Positions 1-21,342 of a stretch of DNA of 25,779 nt are shown piece after piece; the stretch's first letter is position 1; each line of letters opens with the position of its first letter. The notes under the pieces are model-generated. The model saw only the letters and a list, made by a program, of their open reading frames with translations, made no database searches and had not been told where the DNA came from. The position numbers were made by a program, and so were the translations under genes. Source of the DNA: a virus; IMG/VR virus record IMGVR_UViG_3300045988_128600; one strand, given 5' to 3'.

Positions 1-69
1 ACTGGCACTTTTAAATATAGAACTTCTACCACAGGTACTTGGACCCCTGTCCCCGTGGCTTGGATTTAA
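1..69 (+). CDS. Partial CDS, C-terminus only (…TGTFKYRTSTTGTWTPVPVAWI*). Unknown product, possibly the end of a structural or lysis-module protein.
   Basis: Open frame 1 runs from the window edge to TAA at 67-69. No homology is claimed. Confidence 0.3.
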   Translation, partial: TGTFKYRTSTTGTWTPVPVAWI

Positions 70-103
70 TATAAATTTATTATAAGAAAAAGGAGATAAT
101 ATT

Positions 104-514
104 ATGGATCAAAATTTGATTAATCAATTATTCCAAGTATGTTTAATTCCTATGCTTGGCGCTTTAACTACTTTTATAGTTATTTGGATTAAAGCAAAAA
201 GTGCGGAATTACAAAAGAAAACTAATAATGATATTTTAAATAAATATGTGCAAATGGCTACTGACACAATTACTAACTGTGTTATTGCCACTAATCAAAC
301 TTATGTAAATTCTCTTAAAGAACAAGGTAAATTTGATGAAGCTGCTCAAAAAGAAGCATTTTAGAGAACTTATCAAGCGGTGTTGCTTATTTTAAGTGAT
401 GACGCTAAAGAGTATTTGAATAATGCTTTTGGTGATTTAAATAAATATTTACAAGAGAAGATTGAGTCTACAGTAAATAATTATCGTACTCCAAGTAATG
501 ATTTAAAGCAATAA
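104..514 (+). CDS. Holin-like small membrane protein, 136 aa. It has one N-terminal transmembrane segment (LIPMLGALTTFIVIWI) followed by a charged, coiled C-terminus. It reads through an in-frame TAG at 362-364 to TAA at 512-514.
   Basis: RBS aaaaaGGAGAtaatatt precedes the ATG at 104. The TM-plus-KAK/charged-tail layout is typical of Gram-positive phage class-III-like holins (Cph1/EJ-1-like). After the TAG the frame stays open and protein-like (RTYQAVLLILSDDAKEYLNNAFGDLNKYLQEKIESTVNNYRTPSNDLKQ) and ends just before an intrinsic terminator. Confidence 0.55.
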
Positions 515-518
515 AAAT

Positions 519-560
519 AAGGGAGACATTCTTAATTGAATGTCTCCCTTATTTTTTTTT
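519..560. terminator. Bidirectional intrinsic terminator. A 13-bp stem AAGGGAGACATTC/GAATGTCTCCCTT is flanked by an A-run upstream and T10 downstream.
   Basis: A perfect inverted repeat lies at 519-550 with T-run 551-560. It sits between the convergent holin (+) and LytTR (-) genes. Confidence 0.8.
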
Positions 561-1275
561 ATCTGAATGGATTTTTCCATCGTCGATTAATTTCTTCATA
601 GCCTTTTTTAGGAAAGTATAAAATTTCACCATTTTTAAAAGTTAAATTATCTTTGTTCATTATTTTAATTTGATTTAAATTAATAATTAAACTTGGTGGA
701 ATAAAGACAAAATCTGGATGATAAACTAAAGTCCTTATATAGTTTTCAAAAGAAGTTTTTAAAGTTTTGCTATTTAGAACCTCATTTTCTAAATGGCAAC
801 ATAAATTTCGTTTTTGAATATCAGCATATAATACTTTACTCAAATCAATTTTTATTTCTCTATTAGGAGTATCTAAATATTTATATTCACGTCTTTTTTC
901 TTCTCTAACTTCATGTAAAATAGAAAAAATTTTTTCTTTATTAACAGGTTTTTTGACGAAATTAAATGCCTTTACTTCATAAGAAGCCACTCCATAATTT
1001 ATTTGGGAGGAAACAAAAATTATTTTTCCAATATACCCATTTGTTCTTAAAAGATGAGCTATTTCAATACCATCCATTTTTTTGAATGTAATCCCTAAAA
1101 AGATTGCATCATAATCAATATTGGAGTTAATTAATTTTTCAGGATCAGTAAATTTATATACATATCCTGGTAAATTAAAATCTTTAAAATACTGATTTAT
1201 TATTTCTTCCAATGAGTCATTTTGCTAATCGCTATTGTCGCAAACACCTACGATAAAAATTTTAATCACCTTCAT
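559..1275 (-). CDS. Orphan LytTR-family response regulator (AgrA/LytR-like). An N-terminal receiver-like domain has Gly in place of the phospho-acceptor Asp, and the C-terminus is a LytTR DNA-binding domain. There is one in-frame TAG near the N-terminus (MKVIKIFIVGVCDNSD*QNDSLEEIINQYF…).
   Basis: The track ORF 559..1212 extends in frame through a TAG to an ATG at 1273-1275, giving a receiver-like N-terminus MKVIKIFIV…. The receiver β3 position reads DAIFLGI (G where D is expected), β4 IIFVSS and β5 KKP are conserved. The LytTR domain is IKIDLSKVLYADIQKRNLCCHLENEVLNSKTLKTSFENYI…FIPPSLIINLNQI. No histidine kinase gene is adjacent. Confidence 0.65.
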
Positions 1276-1327
1276 TTTGTTTATTTTAGAAAAAATTTTT
1301 CTATCTTTATATTCTTTCTATATTATA

Positions 1328-1356
1328 ATTATACAAAAATTTTTAAATATTGTAAA
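1328..1356 (-). promoter_or_regulatory. Consensus sigma-A-type promoter on the - strand for the LytTR gene: TTTACA-17-TATAAT with a TG-extended -10.
   Basis: The - strand reads TTTACAatatttaaaaatttttgTATAAT. The -35 is at + 1351-1356, the -10 at + 1328-1333, with a 17-nt spacer. Confidence 0.6.
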
Positions 1357-1368
1357 ATAAAAAATTAT

Positions 1369-1425
1369 AAAGTGTCAAATTTATTTAATTTTAAGTAAGT
1401 GAAATTTTTATCCAAAAAGTGTCAG
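1369..1425. promoter_or_regulatory. Direct repeats AAAGTGTCA (1369-1377 and 1416-1424) with a degenerate third copy AAGTGAAAT (~1397-1405). These are candidate LytTR binding sites in the divergent promoter region. The second copy overlaps the -35 position of a good -10 TATAAT at 1430-1435 on the + strand.
   Basis: The 9-mer occurs twice exactly, about 47 bp apart, between the divergent LytTR gene and the + strand gene block. The + strand has TATAAT at 1430-1435 with a poor -35 (TTTATC), the usual layout for activator-dependent promoters. Confidence 0.4.
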
Positions 1426-1465
1426 TAATTATAATATATTTACACAAAATAAAAGTTATATAATA

Positions 1466-1494
1466 ATGAAAGGAAAAGATAAAACCTTTCATTA
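1466..1494 (+). promoter_or_regulatory. 9-bp hairpin AATGAAAGG(n11)CCTTTCATT in the 5' leader, immediately upstream of the RBS of the 1519 gene.
   Basis: Inverted repeat seen in the sequence. The RBS GGAGG is at 1506-1510. Confidence 0.3.
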
Positions 1495-1518
1495 TTATAT
1501 TTCTCCGGAGGTAATAAC

Positions 1519-1965
1519 ATGAATACTTATGGTTATCCATAGCAGTAGTATCCAATAGGTAATAATAGACCTATTTATGGAACAACTGCTACACCTGTGA
1601 TTCAAAACAATACTGCATAGCGAATTAGACCCGTTGCTTCTTTAGAAGAGGTTCGAGCTATGAATATAGATTTTGATGGTTCAGTTTTTTATTTTCCTGA
1701 CTATGCTAATCGTAGAATTTATACAAAACAAATAAATATGGATGGAACAGCTTCTATTAATATGTATGAATTAAAGGAAATCCCGAATTCTTCTTAGCCT
1801 AATAATGATTATATAACACGAGAGGAATTTAATACTACCTTAACTTCTATTAAAGAAGTTTTTGCATAGATCATGGGATCTAATAACGCGGTTGCGCCAT
1901 CTCAAGGAACGGATTAGCCAGCTCAATAGCAACCAGCAGAGAGCAAACCGCAGTTTAATTTTTAA
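1519..1965 (+). CDS. Hypothetical Q/P-rich protein, 148 aa, with 7 in-frame TAG codons. It is invisible to standard-code ORF calling.
   Basis: RBS tctccGGAGGtaataac precedes the ATG at 1519. The frame is open to TAA at 1963-1965 only if TAG is treated as sense. The TAGs fall in Q-rich low-complexity contexts (GYP*Q*YP, GTD*PAQ*QPAESKPQ), which suggests TAG codes Gln. Confidence 0.6.
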
Positions 1966-1977
1966 GGAGAGTTTCAA

Positions 1978-2226
1978 ATGACACAATCAATGAATCCAAT
2001 GCAAATTATTGCTATGATTAAAAACGGTCAAAATCCATAGCAATTAGTTTTATCTATGCTTGAAAGTCAAATGGGCGGAACGCCAATGGGCAATAATTTA
2101 TTACAAATGGCACGGAACGGTCAATCCGATGACATTGAAAAATTTGCTCGTAATTTGTTTGAATCAAGAGGTTTGAATTTCGATAAAGAATTTAATAGTT
2201 TTAAGTCCCAAATGGGGTTTAAATAA
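1978..2226 (+). CDS. Hypothetical small protein, 82 aa, one in-frame TAG.
   Basis: RBS AAGGAGAgtttcaa precedes the ATG at 1978. The frame is open to TAA at 2224-2226 with TAG treated as sense. Confidence 0.55.
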
Positions 2227-2252
2227 ATAAAATTATAGAAAGAGGTTTTGTT

Positions 2253-3134
2253 ATGTTTAATTACAATTATCCAATGAGCACGCCGAATTATTCATTATCT
2301 GATATTGCTGCGGCTTCTGGAAATGGCTATCGTAATAATGATGGCGGAATGTGGGGAGACGGAGCATGGTGGATTATTATCCTGTTCTTATTCTGCTTCA
2401 ATGGCTGGGGCGGTAATGGCTGGGGTAATAATGGTGCTAATGGTTCTGGTTTCCAAGGCACTACAACTCGAGAAGAAATCGGTTATGGTTTTAACATGAG
2501 CGATCTTAAATCTGGCGTTAATGGTTTAGCTTCTAGCCTTTGTAATGGTTTTAGTGGAGTAAACACTAATCTTTTAAGTGGTTTTGCTAATCTTGCTGAA
2601 ACTAATAATGCTAATACTCGCACTTTACAGAGTGATATCTGTAATATGGGTATGAACAATATGCAGAATACCTTTAGTATTACTTAGGCTATTAATGCTG
2701 ATACTGTAGCAAGTATGCAAAATACTAATAATTTAACTCAGCAGTTAAGTAATATGGCAGCTACTAACGCTCAATGCTGCTGCGAAAATAAACAGTTAAT
2801 TCAATCTAGTTTTGCTGATCTTAATTACAATCTTGCTAGTATTGCTTGCCAGAATCGTCAGGCTACCGTTGATGGTGTCCGCGATATTATTGACAACAAT
2901 AATGCTAATATGCGTTCTATTCTTGACTTCCTTGTTCAAGATAAAATTGAGACTCTTACCAGTGAAAATAGCACTCTTAAAAATTAGATTTCTCAAAATC
3001 TTCAAAATGCTTATCTTATTGATCAGTTGTCTCCAAAAGCAACTCCTGCTTATATTGTTGCTAATCCTTATACCGGCGTTAGTTATACTAGCTATGGATG
3101 CGGATATGGTTCAGGGTGCGGTTGCAATTCCTGA
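2253..3134 (+). CDS. Membrane-anchored Gly/Asn-rich protein, 293 aa, with 2 in-frame TAGs. It has an N-terminal hydrophobic segment (AWWIIILFLFCF), NGWG repeats, a coiled middle and a C-terminal GCGYGSGCGC tail. It resembles YjcZ-family small sporulation proteins.
   Basis: Track ORFs 2253..2687 and 2715..2987 are in the same frame, joined by TAG at 2685-2687, and continue through TAG at 2988-2990 to TGA at 3132-3134. RBS agaaAGAGGttttgtt is present. Confidence 0.6.
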
Positions 3135-3155
3135 TTGAAGAAAGAAGGTTAAATT

Positions 3156-3578
3156 ATGGAAATAACGGCTAATGCTTTACAATCAGTTGCTACTGGTTCT
3201 AATGTAGTATTCACTAACACAGCTGTTGCTGGAAACTGTTCCATAATGTATCGCGAGGGTAGCGGTTTAGTTACCCTCCGCGGTCTTACGAACGGTCAAC
3301 GCAGAGCTCGTTTCCGCATTTCATTTGGAGGTAATATAGGACTTCCAACTACTGGAACTGCGGGTGCTATTTCTTTGGCTATAGCTATTAATGGAGAGCC
3401 AGTTACTACTTCTACAATGATTTCCACTCCTACGGCTACTGGATAGTTTAATAATGTTTCACGTGCTTTATTCCTCGATGTGTTAGGCGGTTGTTGCACT
3501 CAAATCAGTATTGAAAACACGAGTTCATAGGCTATTGATGTTGAAAACGCCAGCTTAATTATCGAGAGAGTGGCATAA
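3156..3578 (+). CDS. BclA C-terminal-domain-like (C1q/TNF-like jelly-roll) protein without collagen repeats, 140 aa, with 2 in-frame TAGs.
   Basis: The C-terminus …ASLIIERVA* mirrors the BclA exosporium C-terminal domain ending …SIIIEKVA. An internal …ISLAIAINGEPV… matches the BclA …LTIQVNGVPV… region. RBS aagAAGGttaaatt is present. Track ORF 3156..3446 continues through TAG codons at 3444 and ~3528 to TAA at 3576-3578. Confidence 0.55.
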
Positions 3579-3591
3579 GGAGGTTTTTTAA

Positions 3592-4137
3592 ATGTGTGAT
3601 AAATTCCAAGAAATTAAAAAACAATTATTAACTCAAGTAGAAAGCCAAATGGCTCATTTAGAATGTGTTGATACAAAGGAAATGGGCGAAGTAATAGATA
3701 TGATAAAAGACCTTGAACAGGCTATTTATTATTGCACTATTACTGAAGCTATGAATGAATTACCTGAAACCACACATTATTATACTGAAAAATATAAATC
3801 TCCTCATAAAAAAAGAATCTATAAACCTATGACATATGATTATGATTGGGAAGATTATGATTATGATGAACATGAATATGAGATGCCAACGAGTGGGAAA
3901 TCTCATGAAACCCATGATAGTAGAGAGGGTCGTAGCGGTGTCCATAGAAAGATGTATATAGAAGCCAAAGAACTTCATAAAGATAAAAGCGTTTAGATAA
4001 AAGAATTAGATAAGTATCTTCAAGAATTAAGTTCTGATATAGTAGAAATGATTGAAGATGCTTCTAATGATGAACGTTCTTATATGGAGAAGAAAATCTA
4101 GGCTTTAGCATCTAAAATTGGATCTATGAATGGTTAA
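3592..4137 (+). CDS. Hypothetical acidic protein with a DYDYDEHEYE tract, 181 aa, 2 in-frame TAGs.
   Basis: Strong RBS AAGGAGGttttttaa precedes the ATG at 3592. The frame continues past TAG at 3994-3996 and a second TAG to TAA at 4135-4137. Confidence 0.55.
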
Positions 4138-4450
4138 TATTAATAATAGGAATTGGAGGATACTATTAGTATCTTCCAATCATCCTATGTTAATGCGGCC
4201 TTCTGGAATATATACTTTAGGTTCTTGTGATGATCCTACTTCAACAATTTATATTAATGAAAATATTACTAATAAAAAATTAAAAAAAGTATTAGCGCAT
4301 GAATTAACTCATGCTGCTATTTTTAGCTATGATATTTCATTAAAACCAGAAGAAGAAGAATTGATTGCGGATTTGGTGGGAACTTATGGTGAAGAAATTA
4401 TAAATAATACTAATCTTTTATTTAAATAGATAAAAAAAATAAGGGAATGA
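4130..4450 (+). CDS. Small HEXXH metallopeptidase-like protein (ImmA/IrrE-like motif VLAHELTHAAIF), ~106 aa. A TAG at 4427-4429 is followed by TGA at 4448-4450.
   Basis: An HExxH motif sits in a plausible helix context. The ATG at 4130 overlaps the stop of the upstream gene. If TAG acts as a stop here the protein is 7 aa shorter. Confidence 0.45.
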
Positions 4451-4483
4451 AACTATTTTTGTTTCATTCCCTTATTTTTTTTT
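4441..4483. terminator. Bidirectional intrinsic terminator. A 13-bp stem AAGGGAATGAAAC/GTTTCATTCCCTT is flanked by A8 upstream and T10 downstream. It lies between the convergent + and - gene blocks.
   Basis: Perfect inverted repeat. It shares the flanks AATAAGGGA…TCCCTTATTTTTTTTT with the terminator at 519-560. Confidence 0.8.
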
Positions 4484-4484
4484 A

Positions 4485-4913
4485 TTAGTCTTTAAGCGGT
4501 AATTTTAAAGTCCTTTCATAGTACTCTTTAGCCTATCCATTCCCACCTAAACCTGCATATACTTTAAAGAATTCGACTAACTATTCATACTGTCCTGAAG
4601 TCATATATCCTTGTTTTAAGAAACTTTGACATAATTGAATTAATCTAAATCTATAAGAAGCAAGAATTATTTCAATATATCTCTTACTAATTTTCTTCTC
4701 TTCTAATACAAAAGATCTCAAATTATTTAGATCTTCTTTGATTGGAGCTATATGGTCTTCAATTAATTCTTCTAATTGTTCATCTTTCTTTTCTTCTGCC
4801 AATTTTTGATACATTTTCATTTGAGTATAAATATATCTACAAAAGGCTAAGAGGCCAGCAGAAATAAGACCAAAAAATATTTCTATAAAATGCTAGGCAA
4901 TAAAAGTAGACAT
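4485..4913 (-). CDS. Hypothetical protein, 142 aa, with an N-terminal TM segment and a coiled coil, and 3 in-frame TAGs. It is the last gene of the - strand block.
   Basis: Strong RBS GGAAGGAGGtatttttt precedes the ATG at 4911-4913. Track ORF 4581..4820 is the TAG-bounded middle of this frame. The extensions on both sides are in frame and end at TAA 4485-4487. Confidence 0.5.
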
Positions 4914-4990
4914 AAAAAATACCTCCTTCCATTAACTTCTAATATATTTTAAAAGAAAGGAAGGAGGATTATTTATTTAAGGCCTATCTA

Positions 4991-5503
4991 TTATTCCCAA
5001 TTAAAATCATTATTGGAACTTTCTTTCGTGAAATATGCGGTATATAAACATATAGCATCACATATATCATCATTGGCTTTTATATTATATTTTTGCTATA
5101 CAAAATCAATATCGGCTTGTTTGAGAGTTTCACGTTTAATACTGCGACCAGTTTTAATTCCAAGTTTTTTGCGCCATTCACTGGCCTACATCAATTCTAA
5201 TGTTTTGGAAGTAAATGAAGAATTAACTCCATGTGCGCCCAACATTACTGCGCCTTGAAGCCACATTAATAAACGCGAAGTATCAGAATATCCATAAGTT
5301 TCAGGATGAACATCTTCCGCTACTATCTTCTCTATATTATATTTTTTTACTAATTCAATAATCTAATCTTGTATTTTTTGTATTCTATCTAAATTATTAG
5401 AGGAAATCGCGGTTAGCAGTCCATAATCTAACATTTCTCCCTCACTATTAGATACACAATAACCAGTAGATTTAGTAGATAAATCTAAAAAGAGGATATT
5501 CAA
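4991..5503 (-). CDS. ruvC: RuvC-family Holliday-junction resolvase, 170 aa, with 3 in-frame TAGs. It is completely missed by standard-code ORF calling.
   Basis: The - strand translation begins LNILFLDLSTKSTGYCV… (RuvC motif I), has …KIVAEDV… in the middle and ends …ANDDICDAICLYTAYF… (catalytic Asp region). RBS AAAGGAGGcaattac precedes a TTG start at 5501-5503. TAA lies at 4991-4993. Confidence 0.7.
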
Positions 5504-5535
5504 GTAATTGCCTCCTTTCTTTAGGTTTGAGGTAA

Positions 5536-6054
5536 TTACTTTGAAGTTGAACCAAATCCTCCAAGACGATCACCAGAAGCATTATCATCTTCAGTGATTA
5601 AATAAGATTTAATAATACCTTGACCAATAACATCACCTTTATGAAGTTGAATATCAAAAGGAGATAAATTAATCATTTGAAAATAAATATGTCCTTCATT
5701 ATCAGGATTATTATAATAGTCTGCATCAATAATCCCAACGCCATTAGCAAGAATAAGCCAATATTTTAAAGGACAAGAACTACGAACTGACAATTCAAGA
5801 TATGTATTATCATTTAATTCACATTTAATTCCAGTAGGCACAAGAGTTGGTTTTGCTTTAAGATTTTTTGTCATATTACCTATATCTTCAAGAGAAATTG
5901 AATCAAAATAACGTGTTGGAAATCTATTTAGCAAATTCTTATATGCTGGAATTACAACATCTTCTGCTACTGTAAAATCATAGCCTGCGGATTTCGCTGT
6001 TTTTCTTACAGGCAAAACCGCATCAGGATATTTGCTTACTCGTTCAAACTTCAT
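5536..6054 (-). CDS. dut: dUTP diphosphatase (dUTPase).
   Basis: Motifs SAGYDF, GIIDADYY and the overall 172-aa length are present. Track ORF. Confidence 0.8.
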   Translation of the reverse strand: MKFERVSKYPDAVLPVRKTAKSAGYDFTVAEDVVIPAYKNLLNRFPTRYFDSISLEDIGNMTKNLKAKPTLVPTGIKCELNDNTYLELSVRSSCPLKYWLILANGVGIIDADYYNNPDNEGHIYFQMINLSPFDIQLHKGDVIGQGIIKSYLITEDDNASGDRLGGFGSTSK

Positions 6055-7129: not shown

Positions 7130-7158
7130 ATTATATCACAAATTTTCTTTTTTGTCAA
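7130..7158 (-). promoter_or_regulatory. Perfect-consensus promoter on the - strand: TTGACA-17-TATAAT with a TG-extended -10. It drives the 6563→dut→ruvC operon.
   Basis: The - strand reads cTTGACAaaaaagaaaatttgTGaTATAATttttctatgaaatagatAGGAGattatataATG. The -35 is at + 7153-7158 and the -10 at + 7130-7135. Confidence 0.7.
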
Positions 7159-7630
7159 GTTTTAAATTAATAATGTTCTAATTGCGAGACCCGCGCAAAG
7201 GCAAAGTGATATCTCTTTCCTTTTGGATATATGGTCCATCAATTAGGTAATCGGCGGTTTTTAATATATTCTTAATTCTAATATTATTACTATTCTTTAA
7301 ATCATCATAAATATATCCAGTCCATACATATATTTTAATGTTTGGATATATTTTTTTAATTTCAGTAATAATTAAATTAGTTAAAAATTCGTTTTCAGGG
7401 CAGAGAGGTTCTCCACCCATAATACAAAGATTACGCTCAACATTATTCGCATTAATGGCAGTAATTAATTCATCTAATACTTTATTAGTAAATTCTTTGC
7501 CACCATTAAAATCCCATGTTTCAGGATTCTGGCATCCTTCACAATGGTGCGGACACCCTTGTGTAAAAAATGATACACATACTCCAGGCGCCGCTGCCAA
7601 ATCATTCTTTATAATTCCTGCATATTTCAT
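7136..7630 (-). CDS. nrdG: Anaerobic ribonucleotide reductase activating protein NrdG (radical SAM). The standard-code end is the TAG at 7178-7180. With TAG read-through it gains 13 aa and ends at TGA 7136-7138.
   Basis: The CxxxCxxC cluster GCPHHCEGC and overall NrdG similarity are present. The ATGA overlap with the nrdD stop places it immediately downstream of nrdD. Confidence 0.75.
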
Positions 7631-9882
7631 TCTAATGCTCCTGTATGTTTTACTCTTGCTTCAACTTCTTTTTGTTTGCCCCAATTGAAAGCAGTTTTAT
7701 AATTACCTGTAAGATAACCAGTTACACGACGCAATTGTTGGATATTATGGCTCCCGCACACAGGACAAGAATCATTAAACTCGTCACAATAACCACATTC
7801 AAGGCAAGTATCATTAGGAACATTTACTGCGAAATAAGGAATATCGTGGTCCATTGCATAATTAACAATAGTTTCAAGAGCATCAATATTGTGTTTTACA
7901 GTAGAATCAAGTTCAACATAAGTAATACATCCTGCGGATGAATAGCCAGTCAGCTCAGATTCAATATCAATTTTTTCAAACGGACTCATTTCTTTCCACA
8001 CTGGAACATGAATACTATTAGTGAAAAATTCTCTATCACTAACATTAGGAATAATTCCATACCTTTCTTTAAATTTTGTCATAGCAGTATAACATAAATT
8101 TTCTGCGGGTGTATAATAAACTCCAAAATTTAATTTATATTTTTCTTTATACTCGGCGCATCTATCTTTAAATAATTGTTCAATTCGTTTAGCTAATTCC
8201 ATTCCTTCTGAAGTGGTGTGGTCTTTACCAATAAGAATTTGAAGAGTTTCAGCCAAACCTAACTGACCAATAGCAAGAGTTCCATGCTTAAGAGCAGAAC
8301 GAATTCCCTCTTCTGGGATATAGCCTGCCATAACGTTATTTTCATACATAAATTTCGCGGAGCCTGGGTCTTGAGAGCAAATCCACTCAAAACGTTCCAT
8401 TAACTGAATACGTGCTTCATTGATTTTTCTATCGAGTAAAGACATAAATCGTTCTACACCAATTTTAGTCCGTTCTTCTTGGGACAACGATTTATAGTCC
8501 TCCCAATTATCATTTTCATTTAGAGTAACGGCCATCATCGCAAGAGTAGGAAGAATAATAGTAACAGGACAAATATTTCCACGTCCATCTTTAAGCTGAC
8601 CGAATCCATTAATATCCCAACCATTTGCAGTTCTGCATCCCATCGTAGAAAAATAAGTGCGAGGATCATTAATATCATATCCCGCATTACCAGACCAATC
8701 AACATTTGCATAATTAGGATAAAGGCGTCTCGCGGTGCTTTCTAATGCTAATCTATATAAATCATAATTAGGATCACTAGGCTTGCGGTTAACACCTTTC
8801 ATACATTGAAAAATTCCACAAGGAAAAATTGAAGTTTTATGCAATTTACCAAGACCTTCAATAGAAACATCTAATAACGCCTTAGTTACCATTCTGCCTT
8901 CAGGCTTGGTGCAAGTGCCATAATTGATACTTGTAAATGGTAATTGATTACCACTACGAGATTGTAAAGTATTAAGATTATGGTAAAGGCCTTCTGCAGC
9001 TTGATGAGTTTCGCGAGTGGTCATTTTCATAGCGTATTTATATGCTTTTGGAAATGATTTATAAAAATCATCATCAATAGGAGTTTCTTTACTGTAACAA
9101 CCATCATATTTACTCATATCTAATCCTTCATATAAAAATTCAATACCATCATTGAAATGTTTAAAGAAAGATTTTCTTACATAAGGAACCATAGTCCAAT
9201 CTAAGTGAGTAGCACTAACTCCACCAAACTAACAAAGACTTTGGATTTGAAAAATAACAGCAATTAATTGAAACGCTGTATTAATTGAACCCGCAGGACG
9301 AACATCTGCTTGACGAGTATTAAATCCATTAGCAAGCAAATTATCAAAAGGAATACTTAAACAGTTATGAGAACCAACATAATAAGAATCAAGATCGTGA
9401 GTATAAATAATATTATCAATATGATTCTTACGAGCCATAGGGGAAAGTAAGTAATCAAGCGCAAGTTGTTTGGTGACAACACTACTTGCTTCACCTATAC
9501 GGCCACCGAATGAATGTTCATCAACATTAGCATTTTGATTTTTTACATTATTACCATCGAGCTTTTCACGAATTGCTTTAATAAAATCATCTTTTTTATT
9601 ACGAGCAACTTCTTTTTTATATCTATATCTGATATAAGCACGAGCAACATCGCGTCGCTCAGAACGCATTAAATAATCTTCAATCCAATCTTGAAGATCT
9701 TCTACTCCAACACTTCCATCGGGGAAATGATTTATTTGTCTTTCAATGTCTTCCGCAATATCTTTCGCGGTATCATCTTCATATAATTTACCATCAACTT
9801 CAATAAATGCTTTATTTATTGCGTTAATAATTTTCTTTTTATTAAATTGAGTTATACTTCCATCACGTTTAATAATATACAA
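7627..9882 (-). CDS. nrdD: Anaerobic ribonucleoside-triphosphate reductase NrdD (class III RNR), ~751 aa, one in-frame TAG at 9229-9231.
   Basis: Track ORFs 9229..9897 (ATP-cone N-terminus) and 7627..9192 (catalytic core with the C-terminal CxxC…CxxC Zn ribbon and glycyl-radical region) are in the same frame, separated only by TAG (…IQSLC*FGGVSATHLDWTMVPYVRK…). The likely start is the TTG at 9880-9882, 8 nt after GGAGG (MYIIKRDGS…). Confidence 0.8.
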
Positions 9883-9956
9883 TTTTTTTGCCTCCAAACT
9901 AAATATAGTAGTTCTTTTAGAATATTCTATTATATTTAGGTTTTGTTAGTAAATAA

Positions 9957-10532
9957 TTATTTATCTTGGTCCATTTCCGCCCATTGCTTAACTTTTTGAG
10001 TTAAAAGATTAACAATATTATTATAATCTTCCAATGTTTCATTTGCCACAATATTGCACTTAATATCATTCATTAGCTGAAATTGAATTTCATCAGTAGT
10101 ATATCTTCTAATGATTTCATTTACATCAGGATTTTTTTCTCTATTTAATTGCCTAATTAAGCGAGTTTTTCCTTTTGCAGTGATATAATATATCTCCAAT
10201 TCAATTCTATCATCTTTAAGAAGACTTATAATTCCTTCGGGATTAAAAACACCAATATTAACTTTACTGTCAGACAAACTATCAATACTTGTGCCATAAT
10301 ACCAATTATTAAAAGAAGTGGTTTCTAACATTTTATTTTCATCAATTAAAGTTAAAAACTGATCATCTGAAACAAAATGATAATTTTTGTCTGCTATTTC
10401 TTTTTCACGCTTTGGGCGCGTAGTGTGGCTTATAATAGGATTTAGATATTCCTCTAAGCGGGAAAAGGTAGCCATCATTAGGCTATCTTTTCCTGCACCA
10501 GATTTTCCACATAATGCAATAATTTTATACAT
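9957..10532 (-). CDS. Nucleoside/nucleotide monophosphate kinase (guanylate-kinase-like P-loop kinase).
   Basis: Walker A GKSGAGKDS and the guanylate-kinase TTRPKREKE motif are present. The likely start is the ATG at 10530-10532, preceded by AAGGAGGaattgaagaag. Confidence 0.65.
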   Translation of the reverse strand: MYKIIALCGKSGAGKDSLMMATFSRLEEYLNPIISHTTRPKREKEIADKNYHFVSDDQFLTLIDENKMLETTSFNNWYYGTSIDSLSDSKVNIGVFNPEGIISLLKDDRIELEIYYITAKGKTRLIRQLNREKNPDVNEIIRRYTTDEIQFQLMNDIKCNIVANETLEDYNNIVNLLTQKVKQWAEMDQDK

Positions 10533-13500
10533 CTTCTTCAATTCCTCCTTGATAACGAGCATCTTTTAAAACTAAATCGCCATTGGATAAAATTTCATCA
10601 ATTTTATATAATTGATGCCCTCCAGAAGAAGCATATTTTTTTGACATGAAATTATCTCCATTACGAATTCCAGAGACTACGATCATATTTCCACGATTAA
10701 ACCAAGATTTTTCAACAATATGTTTAGTTCCGTCTGCCCCGCGCTCTGAAATTTGTTTATCAAATAAACTAAAATATTCTTTTCTAAACTTTACTTCTAC
10801 AGGACCAGTAGTAGTAAGAATGGTTACAGTGCTTTTAGTTTTATTTTTGGCAATACAAGTTCCGCAAATTTTAAATAACTTATAAATATGAATAGTATGA
10901 TTTCCTTTAGTAAAACTTCTATCAACTATTGGATCTTCTGGAAGCTTAAAGAAATCTACAAATCCGTATTTATCATTGTTAATATTATTCAATTCATGAG
11001 TATGATAATAATAACAAAGAACTTCCATTTCCCAAGCGGATAAATTATTTTTATTAGCGTATTTATCCCAATCATCTTTAAATATTTTTATATTCAGATT
11101 ATTCAAAATTTCATCTTTATTATTAGCAATCCAAGTGCGGAATATGTCCATCCACTTTTGATATATACTATTCCAAACATTTTCACTTAAAGAATAATTA
11201 GTTCCATCAAATTGAATATTATTATCTTCTCCAATTTCTACTAAGAAATTAATTGCTCGTTCATCAAGTTGATATAGACCATTATTTTTTGTAGTTTTAC
11301 AAATTGCTTTTAAATATCTATTAAATTCATAAATACGGCGAGCCATAATTTGATTTTCATTTTCTTCTGGAAGAAGATCATATTTCATAAGTCCGCCCAT
11401 ATTTTGAAGAGTAATTCTTTTCTTTTTGTCGCAAGTTTCCCAAATATACCAAATCATTAATTCTTTTCTATCCATCATATTATCAAAGGCTCCACCTTTA
11501 ATAAGAGAAATCATAGCTTGTTTACCTGGTTTAATACGGTATAAAAATTCTTTAGGATTTGAATAAGGACGATTGGCAATAATTGTATTAACTAATTCAT
11601 CACCAACATTTAGCATACCTTTTAATCCGAAAAGGATTTTATTATTTTCAATATCAGGAGCAAATCCAAATTTAGATTTATTAATATCAGGAAGACCTAC
11701 TTTAATTCCTGCTTTTTGAATATCACTAATAGCCTTAGCAATTTTTCCATAATCAGTAGCCGCTGTTTTGCGGATTTTGCCACTTTTGTCAGGAAGATCT
11801 TCAAATGTTACTCCATTAGCTAAATCATCACCTTCAGGAGCATAAATATCTACAATCTCTTCTTCGCTATTATCTTCAAGGGAACCACTATTAACAATTA
11901 AGCAAGCAGTATCCCAATAGATAGGATTAAAATGAATTACTAAGTAAATCATTTGAATTGCTACAAATGAATAAGGAAGGGAGTGATTAAGGCTAAATGC
12001 ATATCCTAATTGAGGAGCAACTGCAATTTCCCAAAAGTATTCGGCAGATTTTTCATTATCAAATTTACTAAATACTTGTTCTCTCAATTGTGGAATTTCA
12101 GCCATTTGTTTTTTAGCAACAATCTTACGCGCCGTATTAGCTTCACCAAGAGTAAAATGAGCTACATCCATAAGGATTTCCATCATTTGCTCTTGAATAG
12201 GACAACATCCATAATATTTATCACAATGTTTATGCATCTTATCAATTAATTCTTGTGGAAGATGTTGAGCCTTCATTTCATCATCAAATACTTTAATACC
12301 TGAATGTTGAATGCGATAATATCTATCTTGCTGTGATTCTTTACCTTTTTCAGACATAAGACGCATCATAGCGTTTGCCGCCGTCATTTCCATAGGGTCT
12401 TGGGGTTTAAGACGTTTCGCAATTGCCAAACCAACTCCCGTAGAAAATTGGAATACATCTAATACATCACCAGCAGCAAGGTGGTCCCAAATTGCTTGGT
12501 CAGTTGTATCTATTACTTCTGGATGAATATATTTATTATAAAATTCTCGTAAAGATAATTCTGGAATTTGCTTATCTTTTAGAAGTAATTGATAACAAGT
12601 AATAATTTTATCAGAAGCTTCAGTTACAAGGAAGTCATATTTTGTATCTCCCGCGGCTTCCGCTTTATGAAGATCCCAACAAGTAATCATATCTCCACTA
12701 GGAGTTCTCATAAATGATGCTGTATCAAATGGATCGTCACCATACAAAATAACGCCAGAAGCATGAGAAGAACGTTTATTAACCATTCCTTCAATATATA
12801 CAATAATATCTAAAAGACCAGGATATTGGTTTACTTCTCGAATAAATGCTTGAACGGGCTTACGGTCTTTTTCTTCATTACCATAAATAACATCATGGAT
12901 AGGCCATAAAAATCCACGTTCTTGGGGAATTAATGAAGACATATATTGAGCATTATCAACATCAATTCCTTCTGGGAATTCTTCACTTCTATATCCACGG
13001 CAAGCAGTTAAAATACTTTGTTTAGTGCCTTCAGTTCCAAATGTAGCAACTTGAACCAATCCCAATTCTCCGCGTTCTTTTCTAATTGCTTTGAAAATCG
13101 CGGGACGTTTACTTGGGGCAAGGTCAATATCAATATCAGGCAATTCCGCGCGCTCCTTATTTAAAAATCTCCAATAAGGAAGTCCCCAACGAATTGGGTC
13201 TAATTGAGTAATGCCTAAAAGATAATTAGATAAAAAGCCAGTTGCTGAACCACGTCCAGGACCTACAATACTTCCACATTCCCAAAATAAATTAATATAA
13301 TGTTGAAAAGTATTAAAATAAGCAAAAAGACAATCATCTAATTTTTCGCCAATATCTTTTATGATATCAGCTTCAATTTCAAGTCGCTCTAAATAATTTT
13401 TATTATCATAAAGTTGCTTTTCTTGTAAAGCTTTAATACATTCATTTGCCCAATACCGTTCTTGAATATTGTCGCTATTAATTAAAGAACAGATAATTGG

Positions 13501-14538
13501 ATATTTATCAAACCATTCTGAAGGAATAAATCCTTTCTTATAATCCTTTACTTCAACTTTTGGAATAATTTGTTTTCTTTCTAATGAATAAAAAGAAATT
13601 TTATTTTGGATCTCTTGAGTGTTATCAAGAATCCAATTTATCAATTCTTTTCCTGTTTTATTATCTTTATCCCAATCATTAGCATAAGGTTCCATTAATT
13701 CAAAAATTTCATCACTTGTCATTAAGTAAGTAAATTTATAAAAATCGTCAACTTCTCTTTCTCCTGGCTTAGAAGTAAGATATGCTTTATGAATGGGTCT
13801 ATCTTCTTTAGTTAAATAATGCGCATCTGTTCCAACTACCATTTTTAAATCAAACGCCTTGGCGATTTGATAAATTTTATGATTTACAATTATTTGCTCA
13901 GCGTCAGTAGATGGCGCACATTCAAGATAAAAATCATCTTTTCCAAATACTTTAATACAAAAATTAATATAATCAATTATTTGATTATAATATTTAGTTT
14001 GAGTTTCAATATCTTTATTTAATTCAGCTTGGAACATTGGTAAAATACAGCTACCAAGTTCTCCACCAATACAAGCAGTTGTTGCTATAACATGCCCTTT
14101 ATATTGTTCCATTACCATTTCAAGCTCACTTTTTAAAGTAGGAACTCGTTCCATACGTCTATCAACATAACTATGAATCCAAGCAATAGAACTTAATTCT
14201 CTTAATGCTTTATGTCCGATGGCATCTTTAGCAATAAGAATAAAGTGGTAATATTTTTGTCCATTATCTCTTGTATCAGTGAGATAAATTTCATTACCAA
14301 GAGCAATAGTAAAATCAGGATTTTCTTCTCTTATTTTTTTTGCATATTGATTTACTTCCATATGCGCAGAAAGGCATTCATGGTCTGTAATAGTTATTCC
14401 TGATAGGCCTAATTCTATCGCTTTGTCAATAAGAGCTTGTGGTCTATTAATACAATCTAATAGACGTAAATTTGAATACATTGTATGATTGTGAATCCCG
14501 AAATATGATCTCATTCGCACATTCCTTTCATCTTTCAT
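10525..14538 (-). CDS. dnaE: DNA polymerase III alpha subunit (DnaE-type, N-terminal PHP domain), 1337 aa with no in-frame TAG.
   Basis: The PHP motif FGIHNHTMYS…GITITDHECLSAH and the length are typical of the alpha subunit. Track ORF. The true start may be the internal Met (MRSYFGIHNH) at ~14514. Confidence 0.85.
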   Translation of the reverse strand: MKDERNVRMRSYFGIHNHTMYSNLRLLDCINRPQALIDKAIELGLSGITITDHECLSAHMEVNQYAKKIREENPDFTIALGNEIYLTDTRDNGQKYYHFILIAKDAIGHKALRELSSIAWIHSYVDRRMERVPTLKSELEMVMEQYKGHVIATTACIGGELGSCILPMFQAELNKDIETQTKYYNQIIDYINFCIKVFGKDDFYLECAPSTDAEQIIVNHKIYQIAKAFDLKMVVGTDAHYLTKEDRPIHKAYLTSKPGEREVDDFYKFTYLMTSDEIFELMEPYANDWDKDNKTGKELINWILDNTQEIQNKISFYSLERKQIIPKVEVKDYKKGFIPSEWFDKYPIICSLINSDNIQERYWANECIKALQEKQLYDNKNYLERLEIEADIIKDIGEKLDDCLFAYFNTFQHYINLFWECGSIVGPGRGSATGFLSNYLLGITQLDPIRWGLPYWRFLNKERAELPDIDIDLAPSKRPAIFKAIRKERGELGLVQVATFGTEGTKQSILTACRGYRSEEFPEGIDVDNAQYMSSLIPQERGFLWPIHDVIYGNEEKDRKPVQAFIREVNQYPGLLDIIVYIEGMVNKRSSHASGVILYGDDPFDTASFMRTPSGDMITCWDLHKAEAAGDTKYDFLVTEASDKIITCYQLLLKDKQIPELSLREFYNKYIHPEVIDTTDQAIWDHLAAGDVLDVFQFSTGVGLAIAKRLKPQDPMEMTAANAMMRLMSEKGKESQQDRYYRIQHSGIKVFDDEMKAQHLPQELIDKMHKHCDKYYGCCPIQEQMMEILMDVAHFTLGEANTARKIVAKKQMAEIPQLREQVFSKFDNEKSAEYFWEIAVAPQLGYAFSLNHSLPYSFVAIQMIYLVIHFNPIYWDTACLIVNSGSLEDNSEEEIVDIYAPEGDDLANGVTFEDLPDKSGKIRKTAATDYGKIAKAISDIQKAGIKVGLPDINKSKFGFAPDIENNKILFGLKGMLNVGDELVNTIIANRPYSNPKEFLYRIKPGKQAMISLIKGGAFDNMMDRKELMIWYIWETCDKKKRITLQNMGGLMKYDLLPEENENQIMARRIYEFNRYLKAICKTTKNNGLYQLDERAINFLVEIGEDNNIQFDGTNYSLSENVWNSIYQKWMDIFRTWIANNKDEILNNLNIKIFKDDWDKYANKNNLSAWEMEVLCYYYHTHELNNINNDKYGFVDFFKLPEDPIVDRSFTKGNHTIHIYKLFKICGTCIAKNKTKSTVTILTTTGPVEVKFRKEYFSLFDKQISERGADGTKHIVEKSWFNRGNMIVVSGIRNGDNFMSKKYASSGGHQLYKIDEILSNGDLVLKDARYQGGIEEDV

Positions 14539-14793: not shown

Positions 14794-14810
14794 TAATACT
14801 TGAATTTAAA

Positions 14811-18866: not shown

Positions 18867-19039
18867 AAATGATTTCCTCCTAATAGGTTTTTTAAGTCTA
18901 TTAGTCGTAGTGTCAATTATTAAAAATAATAAGCAGCCCTATCTACAATTTCGTAATCTTCTATAATAATCTAAGGACTAATATTATTATTCCATATATT
19001 TCGTTCGCATTTACCAACGATATTAATTGTCACATAACC

Positions 19040-21055: not shown

Positions 21056-21342
21056 AAACCGCTCTCTCCCATCTTATGCCCTAATGGACAAATATGAAAA
21101 AAAACAGGAATTTCCATTTCCGTATATCCTTTTTCTAAATCTCCATTATATCTAATTACTTTTCGAGTTTCAATTCCACTTGAGATACAATTACTGGTTT
21201 TGTCATAATATTTATTACATTTATCGCAATAAATACAACTTCGGAGCAAACTATCTCTTTGTTTTTTTAATCCTTCAATTTGCGCGCTCAGTGAAATAAT
21301 TGTATCATTTATAGAGATAGGAATATCATAATCATCATTCAT
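21052..21342 (-). CDS. Hypothetical Cys-rich (zinc-ribbon-like) protein, 96 aa.
   Basis: Track ORF with CxxC…CxxC spacing (CIYCDKC…HICPLGH). Its start and stop overlap neighbouring genes. Confidence 0.45.
   Translation of the reverse strand: MNDDYDIPISINDTIISLSAQIEGLKKQRDSLLRSCIYCDKCNKYYDKTSNCISSGIETRKVIRYNGDLEKGYTEMEIPVFFHICPLGHKMGESGL

What the first reader, a model, noticed from the sequence alone, without database searches (positions are those of the whole stretch)
1519..4450. TAG codons are about 5-fold enriched in the + strand lysis/accessory block versus the replication block
Lysis/accessory block (1519-4450): ~15 TAGs in ~980 codons, or 1 per ~65 codons; the first gene alone has 7. 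Replication block (4485-25779): ~20 TAGs in ~7100 codons, or 1 per ~350. DnaE (1337 codons), the primase, the kinase and dUTPase have none. This skew fits the proposal that recoded phages put the reassigned stop into late, lysis or accessory genes. Those genes would then be translated only once the phage suppressor tRNA is expressed, acting as a timing or anti-host safeguard. The essential early genes nevertheless carry a few TAGs, so suppression must begin early.
Basis: partly seen in the sequence, partly recalled or inferred. Interest (0 to 1): 0.7.

Follow-up and report, generated by a model that had tools for sequence, protein, structure and literature searches.

The report
Amber codon skew in recoded phage
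This gut phage reads the stop codon TAG as glutamine and uses it about five times more often in its late and accessory genes than in its replication genes; this pattern is already known for such phages and here seems to reflect avoidance of TAG where translation must be early or very efficient.

Summary
Genes 1519-4450 (+) carry 15 in-frame TAGs in 950 codons. The minus-strand block carries 23 in 6,783 (4.7-fold, Fisher p=2e-5). TAG encodes Gln: in close relatives the same positions hold TAG, CAG or CAA.

The block is not special and is not a lysis block. In a 95-kb composite of a ~97% identical relative, the ordinary late genes upstream have the same density (16.4/1000, against 15.8 in the block and 3.4 in the early arm). 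Diverged relatives and the described phage phAss-1 give the same split (16.3 vs 3.5).

Inside the late module the major capsid protein, its neighbours and the tail tube are almost TAG-free (TAG/Gln 0.02) and use CAG instead. TAGs lie uniformly along genes. Four of the six block genes have their first TAG in the C-terminal half. TAG stays below compositional expectation everywhere.

I read TAG as a tolerated, costly Gln codon. It is purged from early genes and from the most abundant virion proteins, and it drifts upward elsewhere. A timing effect is a likely by-product, not a dedicated gate. No suppressor tRNA was found in about 105 kb. This is a new member of a known kind.

The parts
104..514 (+). 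Holin (g01). One in-frame TAG at 362-364 among 12 Gln codons. It lies outside the finding's coordinates.
   Evidence: phrog_13712 holin, E=7e-38; codon counts.
513..556 (.). Bidirectional terminator-like hairpin (19-bp stem) between the holin and g02. It separates the late operon from the + block.
559..1275 (-). Response regulator with a LytTR DNA-binding domain (g02). One TAG. Divergent from the + block.
   Evidence: Pfam Response_reg, plus LytTR below its cutoff; phrog_8810.
1276..1518 (.). Divergent intergenic region. It holds the direct repeat AAAGTGTCA twice (1369, 1416), a perfect 16-nt inverted repeat (1458-1473 / 1485-1500) just before the g03 ribosome-binding site, and sigma-70-like hexamers on both strands.
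   Evidence: The promoter matches are not above the shuffled expectation.
1519..1965 (+). g03, 148 aa, unknown function (phrog_21718). Seven TAGs at 1540, 1546, 1618, 1795, 1867, 1915 and 1927, out of 14 Gln codons.
   Evidence: There are 3,760 homologues. TAG is retained in close relatives; other amino acids occupy these positions in distant ones.
1978..2226 (+). g04, 82 aa, unknown function. One TAG at 2038.
   Evidence: Relatives have TAG or CAA at this position.
2253..3134 (+). g05, 293 aa. Membrane segment, an N/Q-rich region and a Cys-rich C-terminus (phrog_16490). TAGs at 2685 and 2985. The 2685 TAG is CAG in 16 close relatives.
3156..3578 (+). g06, 140 aa (phrog_20016). TAGs at 3444 and 3528. 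Homologues in standard-code Firmicutes phages align over the full length, across both TAGs.
3592..4137 (+). g07, 181 aa, acidic, unknown function. TAGs at 3994 and 4099.
4130..4450 (+). g08, 106 aa, HExxH metallopeptidase-like. One TAG at 4427, seven codons before the stop.
   Evidence: Pfam DUF2268 and weak Peptidase_M78; phrog_1233.
4434..4480 (.). Bidirectional terminator-like hairpin (20-bp stem) where the + block and the minus-strand arm converge.
4485..5503 (-). g09 (142 aa, 3 TAG) and a RuvC-like resolvase (170 aa, 3 TAG). These are the most downstream genes of the minus arm and are as TAG-dense as the + block.
   Evidence: The RuvC label rests on motifs read by eye; there was no Pfam hit.
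5536..6054 (-). dUTPase, 0 TAG.
   Evidence: Pfam dUTPase.
7136..9897 (-). NrdG activase (1 TAG) and class III ribonucleotide reductase NrdD (1 TAG). Both TAGs align with CAA or CAG in relatives.
   Evidence: PDB alignment; Pfam Fer4_12 and Radical_SAM.
9957..10562 (-). Guanylate-kinase-like gene, 0 TAG.
10525..14538 (-). DNA polymerase III alpha (DnaE), 1337 codons, 0 TAG, 50 Gln codons.
   Evidence: Pfam PHP, DNA_pol3_alpha, finger and HHH_6 domains.
15459..16652 (-). SF1 (RecD/PIF1-like) helicase, 1 TAG. The TAG aligns with CAA or CAG in 21 relatives.
18027..18866 (-). Lysozyme-like protein with an N-terminal membrane or signal segment, 0 TAG. It sits inside the replication arm.
   Evidence: Pfam Phage_lysozyme2, E=4e-19.
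18920..20668 (-). RecJ-like DHH exonuclease, 6 TAG in 582 codons (10.3 per 1000).
   Evidence: Pfam DHH and RecJ_OB.
21339..22442 (-). Putative primase (zinc-finger and Toprim-like motifs read by eye), 0 TAG.
   Evidence: no Pfam hit, so the label is unconfirmed.
22629..24161 (-). DnaB-like replicative helicase, 2 TAG at codons 23 and 59.
   Evidence: Pfam DnaB_C.
24820..25779 (-). AAA_24 (Sak4-like) ATPase, 0 TAG. It runs off the window end.

Best explanation
The window comes from a ~195-kb human-gut siphovirus with an SPbeta/phAss-1-like virion module. It reads TAG as glutamine (genetic code 15).

TAG use is set per gene, in three grades:
- about 35% of Gln codons in ordinary late, virion-assembly and accessory genes;
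- about 10% in the early replication and nucleotide-metabolism arm;
- about 2% in the most abundant virion proteins (capsid cluster and tail tube).

The block at 1519-4450 belongs to the first, TAG-tolerant grade. It looks 'enriched' only because the window sets it beside the depleted early arm.

Proposed mechanism (inferred, not shown). TAG is decoded only by an amber-suppressor tRNA, presumably phage-supplied, competing with host release factor 1. It is therefore a slow and conditional Gln codon. Purifying selection removes it from genes that must be translated before the suppressor has built up, and from genes that need maximal output. Those high-output genes use CAG instead, along with other G-ending codons. 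Elsewhere, C-to-T mutation in an AT-rich genome (CAG to TAG) lets TAG drift upward.

Delayed or limited translation of TAG-rich genes until suppression is established is then a real but secondary consequence.
For: Shown:
- TAG means Gln. In relatives at 90% identity or more, window TAG sites are TAG 537 times, CAG 26, CAA 12 and anything else once. In the other direction, relatives' TAGs align with window Gln in 39 of 46 non-identical cases.
- The skew is real in the window.
- Class table from the 95-kb composite of a relative that is ~97% identical to the window in DNA:
  - ordinary late genes: 244 TAG in 14,885 codons, 16.4 per 1000, TAG/Q 0.37;
  - + block: 15.8 per 1000, TAG/Q 0.28, not different from ordinary late genes (p=1.0 for density, p=0.24 for TAG/Q);
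  - early arm: 43 TAG in 12,566 codons, 3.4 per 1000, TAG/Q 0.10; ordinary late vs early, odds ratio 4.9, p=1e-28;
  - capsid cluster plus tail tube: 1 TAG among 43 Gln codons (p=2e-7 against other late genes), CAG/Q 0.53, AAG+GAG share 0.51 against 0.17.
- The 368-aa TAG-free protein has the HK97 capsid fold (AF2 pLDDT 85.6; Foldseek gives 338 hits at E<=1e-3, phage capsids and encapsulins at the top). It belongs to Pfam family YonB. The 327-aa protein belongs to YomU_Tube.
- The same per-gene grades hold in relatives in every identity band examined (>=90%, 60-90%, <60%).
- They also hold in the complete genome of phAss-1: 16.3 vs 3.5 per 1000, capsid protein 0 TAG with 15 of 15 Gln codons CAG, DnaE 0 TAG.
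- TAG positions in late genes are uniform (mean relative position 0.498; KS p=0.93) and do not differ from CAA/CAG positions.
- CAG-to-TAG turnover is ongoing. The g05 TAG at 2685 is CAG in 16 close relatives, and TAG-CAG exchanges outnumber TAG-CAA exchanges 26 to 12 although CAA is about ten times commoner.
- TAG/Q lies below a composition-based expectation of 0.6-0.8 in every class.

Inferred: the link to suppressor availability and to release-factor competition. This follows from established knowledge of amber suppression.
Against: - There are no expression data. 'Early', 'late' and 'abundant' are assigned from gene function and position only.
- The composite comes from a close relative, not from the window's own genome.
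- No suppressor tRNA was found in the ~105 kb examined, out of ~195 kb. The decoding agent is therefore assumed.
- The compositional expectation borrows Leu (TTR vs CTR) and Lys/Glu (A- vs G-ending) codon usage. It assumes equilibrium and no selection on those codons.
- Some low-abundance early genes that should tolerate inefficiency, such as DnaE, have no TAG, while the RecJ-like gene has six. Timing therefore does contribute, and this overlaps with the rival adaptive-gate view.
- Counts pooled over many near-identical relatives are not independent observations.
Confidence: 0.6

Rival explanations
1. Adaptive translational gate. TAGs are positively maintained in late, lysis and accessory genes so that these proteins cannot be made until the phage suppressor tRNA is expressed. 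This would time lysis and protect against premature or host-forced expression.
For: - The module-level skew is conserved across the clade and in phAss-1.
- g03 has TAGs at codons 8 and 10, and g04 at codon 21. These positions would block translation early in the gene.
- The lysozyme-plus-amidase protein (probable endolysin) carries 8 TAGs in 433 codons although it lies on the early strand.
- In phAss-1 the tRNA-Sup(CTA) genes lie on the early strand, next to nrdD and within a tRNA array.
- The model is published.
Against: - The capsid protein, its neighbours and the tail tube are late but TAG-free.
- The holin has 1 TAG in 12 Gln codons, and the lysozyme-like g25 has none.
- TAG positions are uniform, not N-terminal. 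In g05-g08 the first TAG falls in the C-terminal half, and in g08 truncation would remove only about 6 residues.
- TAG sites in g03 are not conserved in diverged orthologues.
- TAG/Gln is below compositional expectation.
- Essential replication genes (DnaB, NrdD, RecJ-like) also need suppression.
Confidence: 0.25
2. Compositional or horizontal-transfer artefact. The + block is a mobile cassette of foreign composition, or the skew reflects strand-specific mutation. Its TAG content would then be mutational history rather than selection on translation.
For: - The block has higher GC (0.31-0.42, against 0.24-0.35 in the minus arm) and more CAG (11 of 39 CAA+CAG codons, against 20 of 222; p=0.002).
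- Within the window, TAG/(TAG+CAG) is the same in both blocks (0.58 vs 0.53).
- Parts of the block are missing in some ~96% identical relatives (L061, L064, L075).
- The g05-g06 pair occurs in standard-code temperate Firmicutes phages.
- In the window, every TAG-rich gene of the block is on the + strand.
Against: - On the same strand and in the same module, TAG/Gln ranges from 0.0 (capsid cluster) to 0.5.
- The minus strand holds TAG-dense genes: the endolysin-like gene at 18.5 per 1000, the RuvC-like gene, g09 and the RecJ-like gene.
- The 30-50 kb of native virion genes have the same density as the block.
- With the larger sample, TAG/(TAG+CAG) does differ: 0.86 in late genes against 0.39 in early genes.
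- Other G-ending codons are not enriched in the block (pooled odds ratio 1.2, p=0.25).
Confidence: 0.1
3. Annotation artefact. The TAGs are genuine stops, and the + block consists of short or decayed ORFs that are not expressed as the long proteins assumed here.
For: - Under the standard code the block breaks into ORFs of 90-144 aa, each with a plausible ATG.
- No suppressor tRNA was found.
Against: - Homologues in standard-code phages align across the TAGs of g05 and g06 over about 90-100% of their length.
- The PHROG profile match of g03 spans three TAGs.
- TAG alternates with CAG or CAA at the same sites in relatives.
- NrdD, NrdG, the DnaB-like and RecJ-like genes and the SF1 helicase are intact only if TAG is read through.
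- No in-frame TGA or TAA occurs in the aligned orthologues.
Confidence: 0.03

Closest known systems
Alternatively coded gut phages described by Borges et al. [quoted passage not shown]
   Same: - A stop codon is reassigned in a low-GC gut phage.
- The recoded codon is concentrated in structural and lysis-side modules and used only variably in replication genes.
- A large genome (~195 kb) with a Firmicutes-type gene content.
- 60% of called genes carry an in-frame TAG, which is inside their reported range of 26-71%.
   Different: - Clade membership was not tested, because no reference sequences were available here.
- Lysis genes are not the most biased genes in this phage.
- The capsid protein and tail tube are TAG-free. 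The preprint does not mention capsids at all.
- No code-change module (suppressor tRNA, release factor, tRNA synthetase) was found next to the holin.
Phage phAss-1 (OQ749652.1; proposed genus Phassvirus; NCBI 'Caudoviricetes code 15 clade'; PMC10607447)
   Same: - Capsid protein 49.7% identical.
- A giant tape-measure protein (3150 aa there, 2737 aa here).
- DnaE and NrdD/NrdG on a long minus-strand early arm.
- TAG-to-Gln recoding with nearly the same class densities: 16.3 vs 3.5 per 1000 there, 16.4 vs 3.4 here.
- Capsid protein and DnaE without TAG.
   Different: - phAss-1 is 136 kb at 44.5% GC; this phage is about 195 kb at about 30% GC.
- phAss-1 has two tRNA-Sup(CTA) genes directly upstream of nrdD and a roughly 30-tRNA array. 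The window has only 59 bases and no tRNA at that spot, and no tRNA was seen in 105 kb.
- There is no DNA-level similarity.
crAss-like phages that use genetic code 15 (validated by metaproteomics; PMC9523058)
   Same: TAG is read as Gln, is confined mostly to the late gene block, and is thought to be decoded by a phage suppressor tRNA.
   Different: They are an unrelated lineage (podovirus-like, Bacteroidota hosts). I know of no report that the most abundant virion proteins are spared, but I did not check this in the literature.
Post-lysis accessory cassettes of temperate Firmicutes phages (Butyrivibrio virus Ceridwen MN882553; Dulem virus 33 PP511792)
   Same: Homologues of g05 (phrog_16490) and g06 (phrog_20016) occur as an adjacent pair, downstream of the endolysin and upstream of the integrase or regulatory genes. 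This is the typical position of accessory 'moron' genes.
   Different: Those phages are ~40 kb and use the standard code, so the same proteins are encoded without TAG. The function is unknown in all of them.

Membership tests
Genetic code 15 (TAG to Gln) phage | In-frame TAG inside conserved genes that are intact only if TAG is read through | tested here: met
   This holds for NrdD, NrdG, the RecJ-like and DnaB-like genes, the SF1 helicase, g05 and g06.
Genetic code 15 (TAG to Gln) phage | TAG positions correspond to Gln codons in homologues | tested here: met
   In close relatives, 38 of the 39 non-TAG codons at window TAG sites are CAG or CAA. Of relatives' TAGs at sites where the window has no TAG, 39 of 46 align with window Gln.
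Genetic code 15 (TAG to Gln) phage | TAG is not used as a terminator; genes end in TAA or TGA | tested here: met
   All 31 complete genes in the window end in TAA (24) or TGA (7). TAGs close to a C-terminus (NrdG, g08, g31) align with sense codons in relatives. This is partly by construction, because ORFs were extended through TAG.
Genetic code 15 (TAG to Gln) phage | The phage encodes a suppressor tRNA with anticodon CTA | tested here: inconclusive
   ARAGORN and Rfam found no tRNA in the window or in ~105 kb of the near-identical relative. About 90 kb of the genome could not be fetched. phAss-1 has three such tRNAs.
Late-gene-biased recoding (Borges model) | Higher recoded-codon density in structural and lysis modules than in replication genes | tested here: met
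   16.4 vs 3.4 per 1000, odds ratio 4.9, p=1e-28. Conserved in relatives.
Late-gene-biased recoding (Borges model) | Lysis genes are the most strongly biased genes | tested here: not met
   Holin TAG/Gln is 0.08. Lysozyme-like g25 has 0 TAG. The lysozyme-plus-amidase gene is at 18.5 per 1000, which is ordinary for late genes. The densest genes are the tape measure, tail and connector genes, and g03.
Late-gene-biased recoding (Borges model) | TAG-containing genes are translated only after a code switch during infection | not testable with these tools
   This needs time-resolved transcriptomics, ribosome profiling or proteomics.
phAss-1-like / SPbeta-like siphoviruses | Homologous virion module (capsid protein, tail tube, tape measure) | tested here: met
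   Precomputed Pfam families YonB, YomU_Tube, YomV, YomW, YonD and YonG on a 93% relative. The capsid protein is 49.7% identical to phAss-1 and 25-40% to Enterococcus and Bacillus SPbeta-like phages.
phAss-1-like / SPbeta-like siphoviruses | Membership of the proposed genus Phassvirus, whose members share 82.7-86.4% nucleotide identity (the identities of the two relatives to phAss-1, PMC10607447) | tested here: not met
   Megablast of the window against 50,697 phage records found no match. This is at most a distant relative.

The most novel reading that the evidence does not exclude
TAG use is graded by how much and how early a protein must be made. That would mean amber suppression in this phage lineage is partial and costly. 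The early replication core and the bulk virion proteins (capsid, tail tube) would be kept 'code-neutral', translatable in either code state, while low-copy tail, assembly and accessory proteins are not. If so, per-gene TAG/Gln could be used to read expression class or abundance from sequence alone in uncultured recoded phages. It would also suggest that the published 'late-gene gate' is largely a relaxation-of-selection pattern. A further open possibility is that this lineage has no suppressor tRNA of its own and relies on some other way of decoding.
Probability: 0.3. Interest if true: 0.5.

Novelty: new member of a known kind. Interest (0 to 1): 0.3.

Why it matters
The finding confirms, for another large gut-phage lineage, that the genetic code is used unevenly along one genome. 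This matters for gene calling: under the standard code this block and the 30-50 kb of virion genes fall into fragments.

The useful addition is a refinement. TAG is avoided both in the early replication core and in the most abundant late virion proteins, and where it does occur it is placed at random along the gene. This points to a cost of amber decoding rather than a purpose-built switch. It also gives a concrete, testable prediction for the debate on why phages recode stop codons.

The finding itself is an instance of a published pattern.

Tried and rejected
- Megablast of the window against GenBank phages found nothing.
- An exact look-up of DnaE in the assembly index found nothing on record.
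- I walked the genome of a near-identical relative with all 8 viral scans and the single metagenome scan. This covered about 105 of ~195 kb and found no tRNA. The suppressor tRNA therefore remains unlocated.
- I tried to use the tRNA array of a distant relative (L079) as a synteny guide. Its flanking genes have no counterparts in the covered region.
- A search with the leftmost late ORF, meant to extend the walk, returned only short fragments.
- Rfam at gathering threshold, run on ~190 kb of loci, gave no hit: no tRNA and no ribozyme.
- The first AlphaFold model of the capsid candidate, from a shallow alignment, failed (pLDDT 45). Sequence searches against the PDB found nothing useful. A deeper alignment solved the problem.
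- Pfam, PADLOC and precomputed Pfam give no function for g03-g07.
- The idea that TAG simply tracks CAG content looked right inside the window. I rejected it once the 95-kb sample was available.
- I rejected strand bias because of the heterogeneity within each strand.
- Sigma-70-like promoter matches in 1-5600 do not exceed the shuffled expectation (27 found, 32 expected). I make no claim about the block's promoter.


Full report
**1. What the window is**

The 25.8-kb window has about 30% GC and no tRNA gene. Allowing read-through of TAG, but not of TGA, merges broken ORFs into long genes. These include class III ribonucleotide reductase NrdD and its activase NrdG, a RecJ-like exonuclease, a DnaB-like helicase, an SF1 helicase and a RuvC-like resolvase.

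In IMG/VR the DnaE gene finds about 20 contigs with 98-100% identical protein, 97-197 kb long. All come from one metagenome. It also finds more distant relatives. At the DNA level these contigs are 94-98% identical to the window. One of them, contig 118866, matches a 198-kb human-gut contig exactly over their 10.7-kb overlap.

The virion module is SPbeta-like according to precomputed Pfam names (YonB, YomU_Tube and others). The nearest described phage is phAss-1, whose capsid protein is 49.7% identical. phAss-1 is classified by NCBI in a 'code 15 clade'.

**2. TAG encodes glutamine**

I aligned each window protein to relatives by tblastn and read the codon opposite each window TAG. In relatives at 90% identity or more it was TAG 537 times, CAG 26, CAA 12 and something else once. 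In the other direction, TAGs in relatives fell opposite a window Gln in 39 of 46 non-identical cases.

In NrdG, the TAG in the conserved 'RGSRNxN' stretch is CAA in 19 relatives. The TAGs in NrdD and the SF1 helicase are CAA or CAG in 21-23 relatives. No in-frame TGA or TAA appears in aligned orthologues.

The idea that the + block is a string of short or decayed ORFs is therefore rejected. Standard-code homologues of g05 and g06 align straight across the TAGs.

**3. The observation**

With code-15 gene calls, 1519-4450 holds six genes with 15 TAG in 950 codons. The same lengths appear for five of the six in a public collection's calls (g08 is called shorter there, 87 vs 106 aa). The 24 minus-strand genes hold 23 TAG in 6,783 codons. 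The ratio is 4.7 (Fisher p=2e-5; gene-level Mann-Whitney p=0.003).

As a share of Gln codons, TAG is 0.28 against 0.094 (p=0.001). Dropping g03, which has 7 TAG, leaves a 2.9-fold ratio (p=0.013). DnaE, the guanylate-kinase-like gene, dUTPase and the putative primase have no TAG.

The minus block is itself heterogeneous (p=9e-5). g09, the RuvC-like gene, g23, the RecJ-like gene and g31 are as TAG-dense as the + block.

**4. What the block is**

No gene in 1519-4450 is a recognisable lysis gene. Five of the six (all but g08, which is HExxH metallopeptidase-like) have no assignable function: g03, g05 and g06 match only PHROG families of unknown function, and g04 and g07 match none. Nothing matches PADLOC. 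The holin is upstream at 104-514.

The g05-g06 pair recurs after the endolysin in ~40-kb standard-code Firmicutes phages. Parts of the block are missing in some ~96% identical genomes. 'Accessory' is therefore a fair label, and 'lysis' is not.

Strong bidirectional terminator-like hairpins at 513-556 and 4434-4480 make the block a separate transcription unit. It is divergent from a LytTR-type response regulator. Its expression time is unknown.

**5. Beyond the window**

I assembled 95 kb of the near-identical contig 118866 and looked at 10 kb more on the right. Upstream of the holin lie about 50 kb of + strand virion genes: terminase, portal, capsid cluster, connectors, tail tube, a 2737-aa tape measure and giant tail proteins.

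| Gene class | TAG / codons | TAG per 1000 | TAG/Gln |
|---|---|---|---|
| Ordinary late genes | 244 / 14,885 | 16.4 | 0.37 |
| + block | 15 / 950 | 15.8 | 0.28 |
| Early arm | 43 / 12,566 | 3.4 | 0.10 |

(All.)

The + block does not differ from ordinary late genes (p=1.0 for density). Ordinary late genes differ from the early arm with p=1e-28. The next 10 kb of the early arm has about 5 TAG in roughly 2,900 codons.

Orthologues in diverged relatives keep the split. At 70-90% identity the values are early 1.2, late 12.8 and + block 21.1 per 1000. At 50-70% they are 1.7, 10.5 and 11.4. The complete phAss-1 genome gives 16.3 against 3.5.

It is not a property of this block.

**6. Structure inside the late module**

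Three adjacent late genes (305, 368 and 197 aa) have no TAG in 31 Gln codons. The chance of this at the late-gene rate is about 1.5e-6. The tail tube has one TAG.

The 368-aa protein is the HK97-fold major capsid protein (AF2 pLDDT 85.6; Foldseek top hits are phage capsids and encapsulins; Pfam YonB).

Across relatives in every identity band examined (>=90%, 60-90%, <60%), these genes keep TAG/Gln at or below 0.07 and CAG/Gln at about 0.5-0.8 (one gene, 0.23, in the closest band). Their immediate neighbours show TAG/Gln of 0.1-0.7, mostly 0.2-0.7, and CAG/Gln mostly at or below 0.2. These genes also prefer AAG and GAG (share 0.51 against 0.17), the usual mark of highly expressed genes. Yet they avoid the G-ending TAG. 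phAss-1 behaves the same way: its capsid protein has 0 TAG and 15 of 15 Gln codons are CAG.

**7. Placement and level of TAG**

In late genes TAGs are uniformly placed (mean relative position 0.498; KS p=0.93). Their positions cannot be told apart from those of CAA/CAG. In g05-g08 the first TAG lies in the C-terminal half. The only TAG in g08 is 7 codons before the stop. Only g03 (codons 8 and 10) and g04 (codon 21) would be blocked early.

TAG sites in g03 are not conserved in diverged orthologues. A composition-based expectation, borrowing T-versus-C usage from Leu codons and G-versus-A usage from Lys and Glu codons, puts neutral TAG/Gln at 0.6-0.8. This is above every class observed. It is a heuristic and an inference.

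Among the lysis candidates:
- the holin has TAG/Gln 0.08;
- lysozyme-like g25 has no TAG;
- a lysozyme-plus-amidase protein on the early strand has 8 TAG in 433 codons.

**8. Interpretation**

The best-supported reading is that TAG is a tolerated but costly Gln codon. It is removed from genes that must be translated early, and from genes that need the highest output. Elsewhere it drifts upward through CAG-to-TAG mutation. The g05 TAG at 2685, which is CAG in 16 relatives, is an example.

A delay in translating TAG-rich proteins until suppression is established would follow from this. The published model is therefore not contradicted. The data do not, however, show a dedicated gate on lysis or accessory genes.

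Strand or compositional explanations fail because of the heterogeneity within each strand.

**9. Limits**

- There are no expression data.
- The suppressor tRNA was not found in about 105 of ~195 kb. In phAss-1 two suppressor tRNAs lie directly upstream of nrdD and a third lies in a tRNA array on the early strand. The equivalent spot in the window, 9898-9956, is empty.
- The composite comes from a close relative, not from the window's own genome.
- Pooled counts over near-identical genomes are not independent.
- Gene starts are heuristic.

**10. Novelty**

Recoding biased towards late genes is published for several phage clades. This is another member of that kind. The sparing of the capsid and tail-tube genes, together with the random placement of TAG, is a modest refinement. 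I did not find it in the Borges preprint, which never mentions capsids.

Noticed in passing
window 513-556 and 4434-4480: Two long, near-perfect bidirectional terminator-like hairpins (19- and 20-bp stems). Both contain the core AATAAGGGA...TCCCTTATT. They bracket g02 and the + block and make the block its own transcription unit.
   Followed up: partly
window 1276-1518: The divergent intergenic region between the LytTR regulator and g03 holds the direct repeat AAAGTGTCA twice, 47 nt apart. It also holds a perfect 16-nt inverted repeat (1458-1473 / 1485-1500) directly upstream of the g03 ribosome-binding site. This could be an operator or a 5'-UTR hairpin. The regulator's own upstream region carries the 'AAATTTTTGTATAAT'-type motif seen before several early genes.
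   Followed up: partly
window 714-4232, compared with L061, L064 and L075: Some ~96% identical genomes lack parts of this region: L064 lacks 714-2332, L075 lacks 1764-4232 and L061 lacks 1215-3848. The cassette is dispensable and variable within the population.
   Followed up: partly
window 2253-3578; L001 8155-9450; L002 8134-9420: g05 has a membrane segment, an N/Q-rich region and a Cys-rich tail ending CGYGSGCGCNS. g06 is a 140-aa beta-rich protein. They form a conserved adjacent pair in ~40-kb standard-code Firmicutes phages, placed after the endolysin. Their function is unknown.
   Followed up: partly
relative composite (contig 118866), about 42.6-39.9 kb and 36.6-35.6 kb upstream of window position 1; L500 9060-11801 and 15104-16087: The capsid cluster (305, 368 and 197 aa) and the tail tube are nearly TAG-free. 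They strongly prefer CAG, AAG and GAG, unlike every neighbouring late gene, and this holds across the whole clade and in phAss-1. The tape measure carries 72 TAGs.
   Followed up: yes
window 18027-18866, and about 12 kb to the right of the window in the relative (L261/L100): Two proteins with a Phage_lysozyme2 domain lie on the early strand. One has an N-terminal membrane or signal segment and no TAG. The other is fused to Amidase_2 and has 8 TAGs, making it the probable endolysin, far from the holin.
   Followed up: partly
window 9898-9956, compared with OQ749652.1 62445-62703 (L502 12445-12703): phAss-1 has two tRNA-Sup(CTA) genes and a tRNA-Leu immediately upstream of nrdD. The same junction in the window is 59 bases long and has no tRNA.
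   Followed up: yes
L079 13927-14020: A distant relative (holin 46% identical) carries a 94-nt tRNA with anticodon CTA and a long variable arm, inside a 10-tRNA array. Most of its ORFs lack in-frame TAG. The amino acid it inserts is unclear.
   Followed up: no
relative, about 18-19.6 kb to the right of the window (comp2 73765-75150): A flotillin/band-7-like gene on the early strand uses CAG for 18 of 21 Gln codons and has no TAG. This is the same codon signature as the capsid cluster and suggests very high expression.
   Followed up: no
window 14564-14908 and 14811-15455: The open frame of g19 overlaps the 3' end of g20 by up to ~100 nt, depending on the start chosen. The g19 start is uncertain. 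The starts of g14 and g24 are also uncertain: upstream TAGs there align with TAA in relatives and so are probably non-coding.
   Followed up: partly
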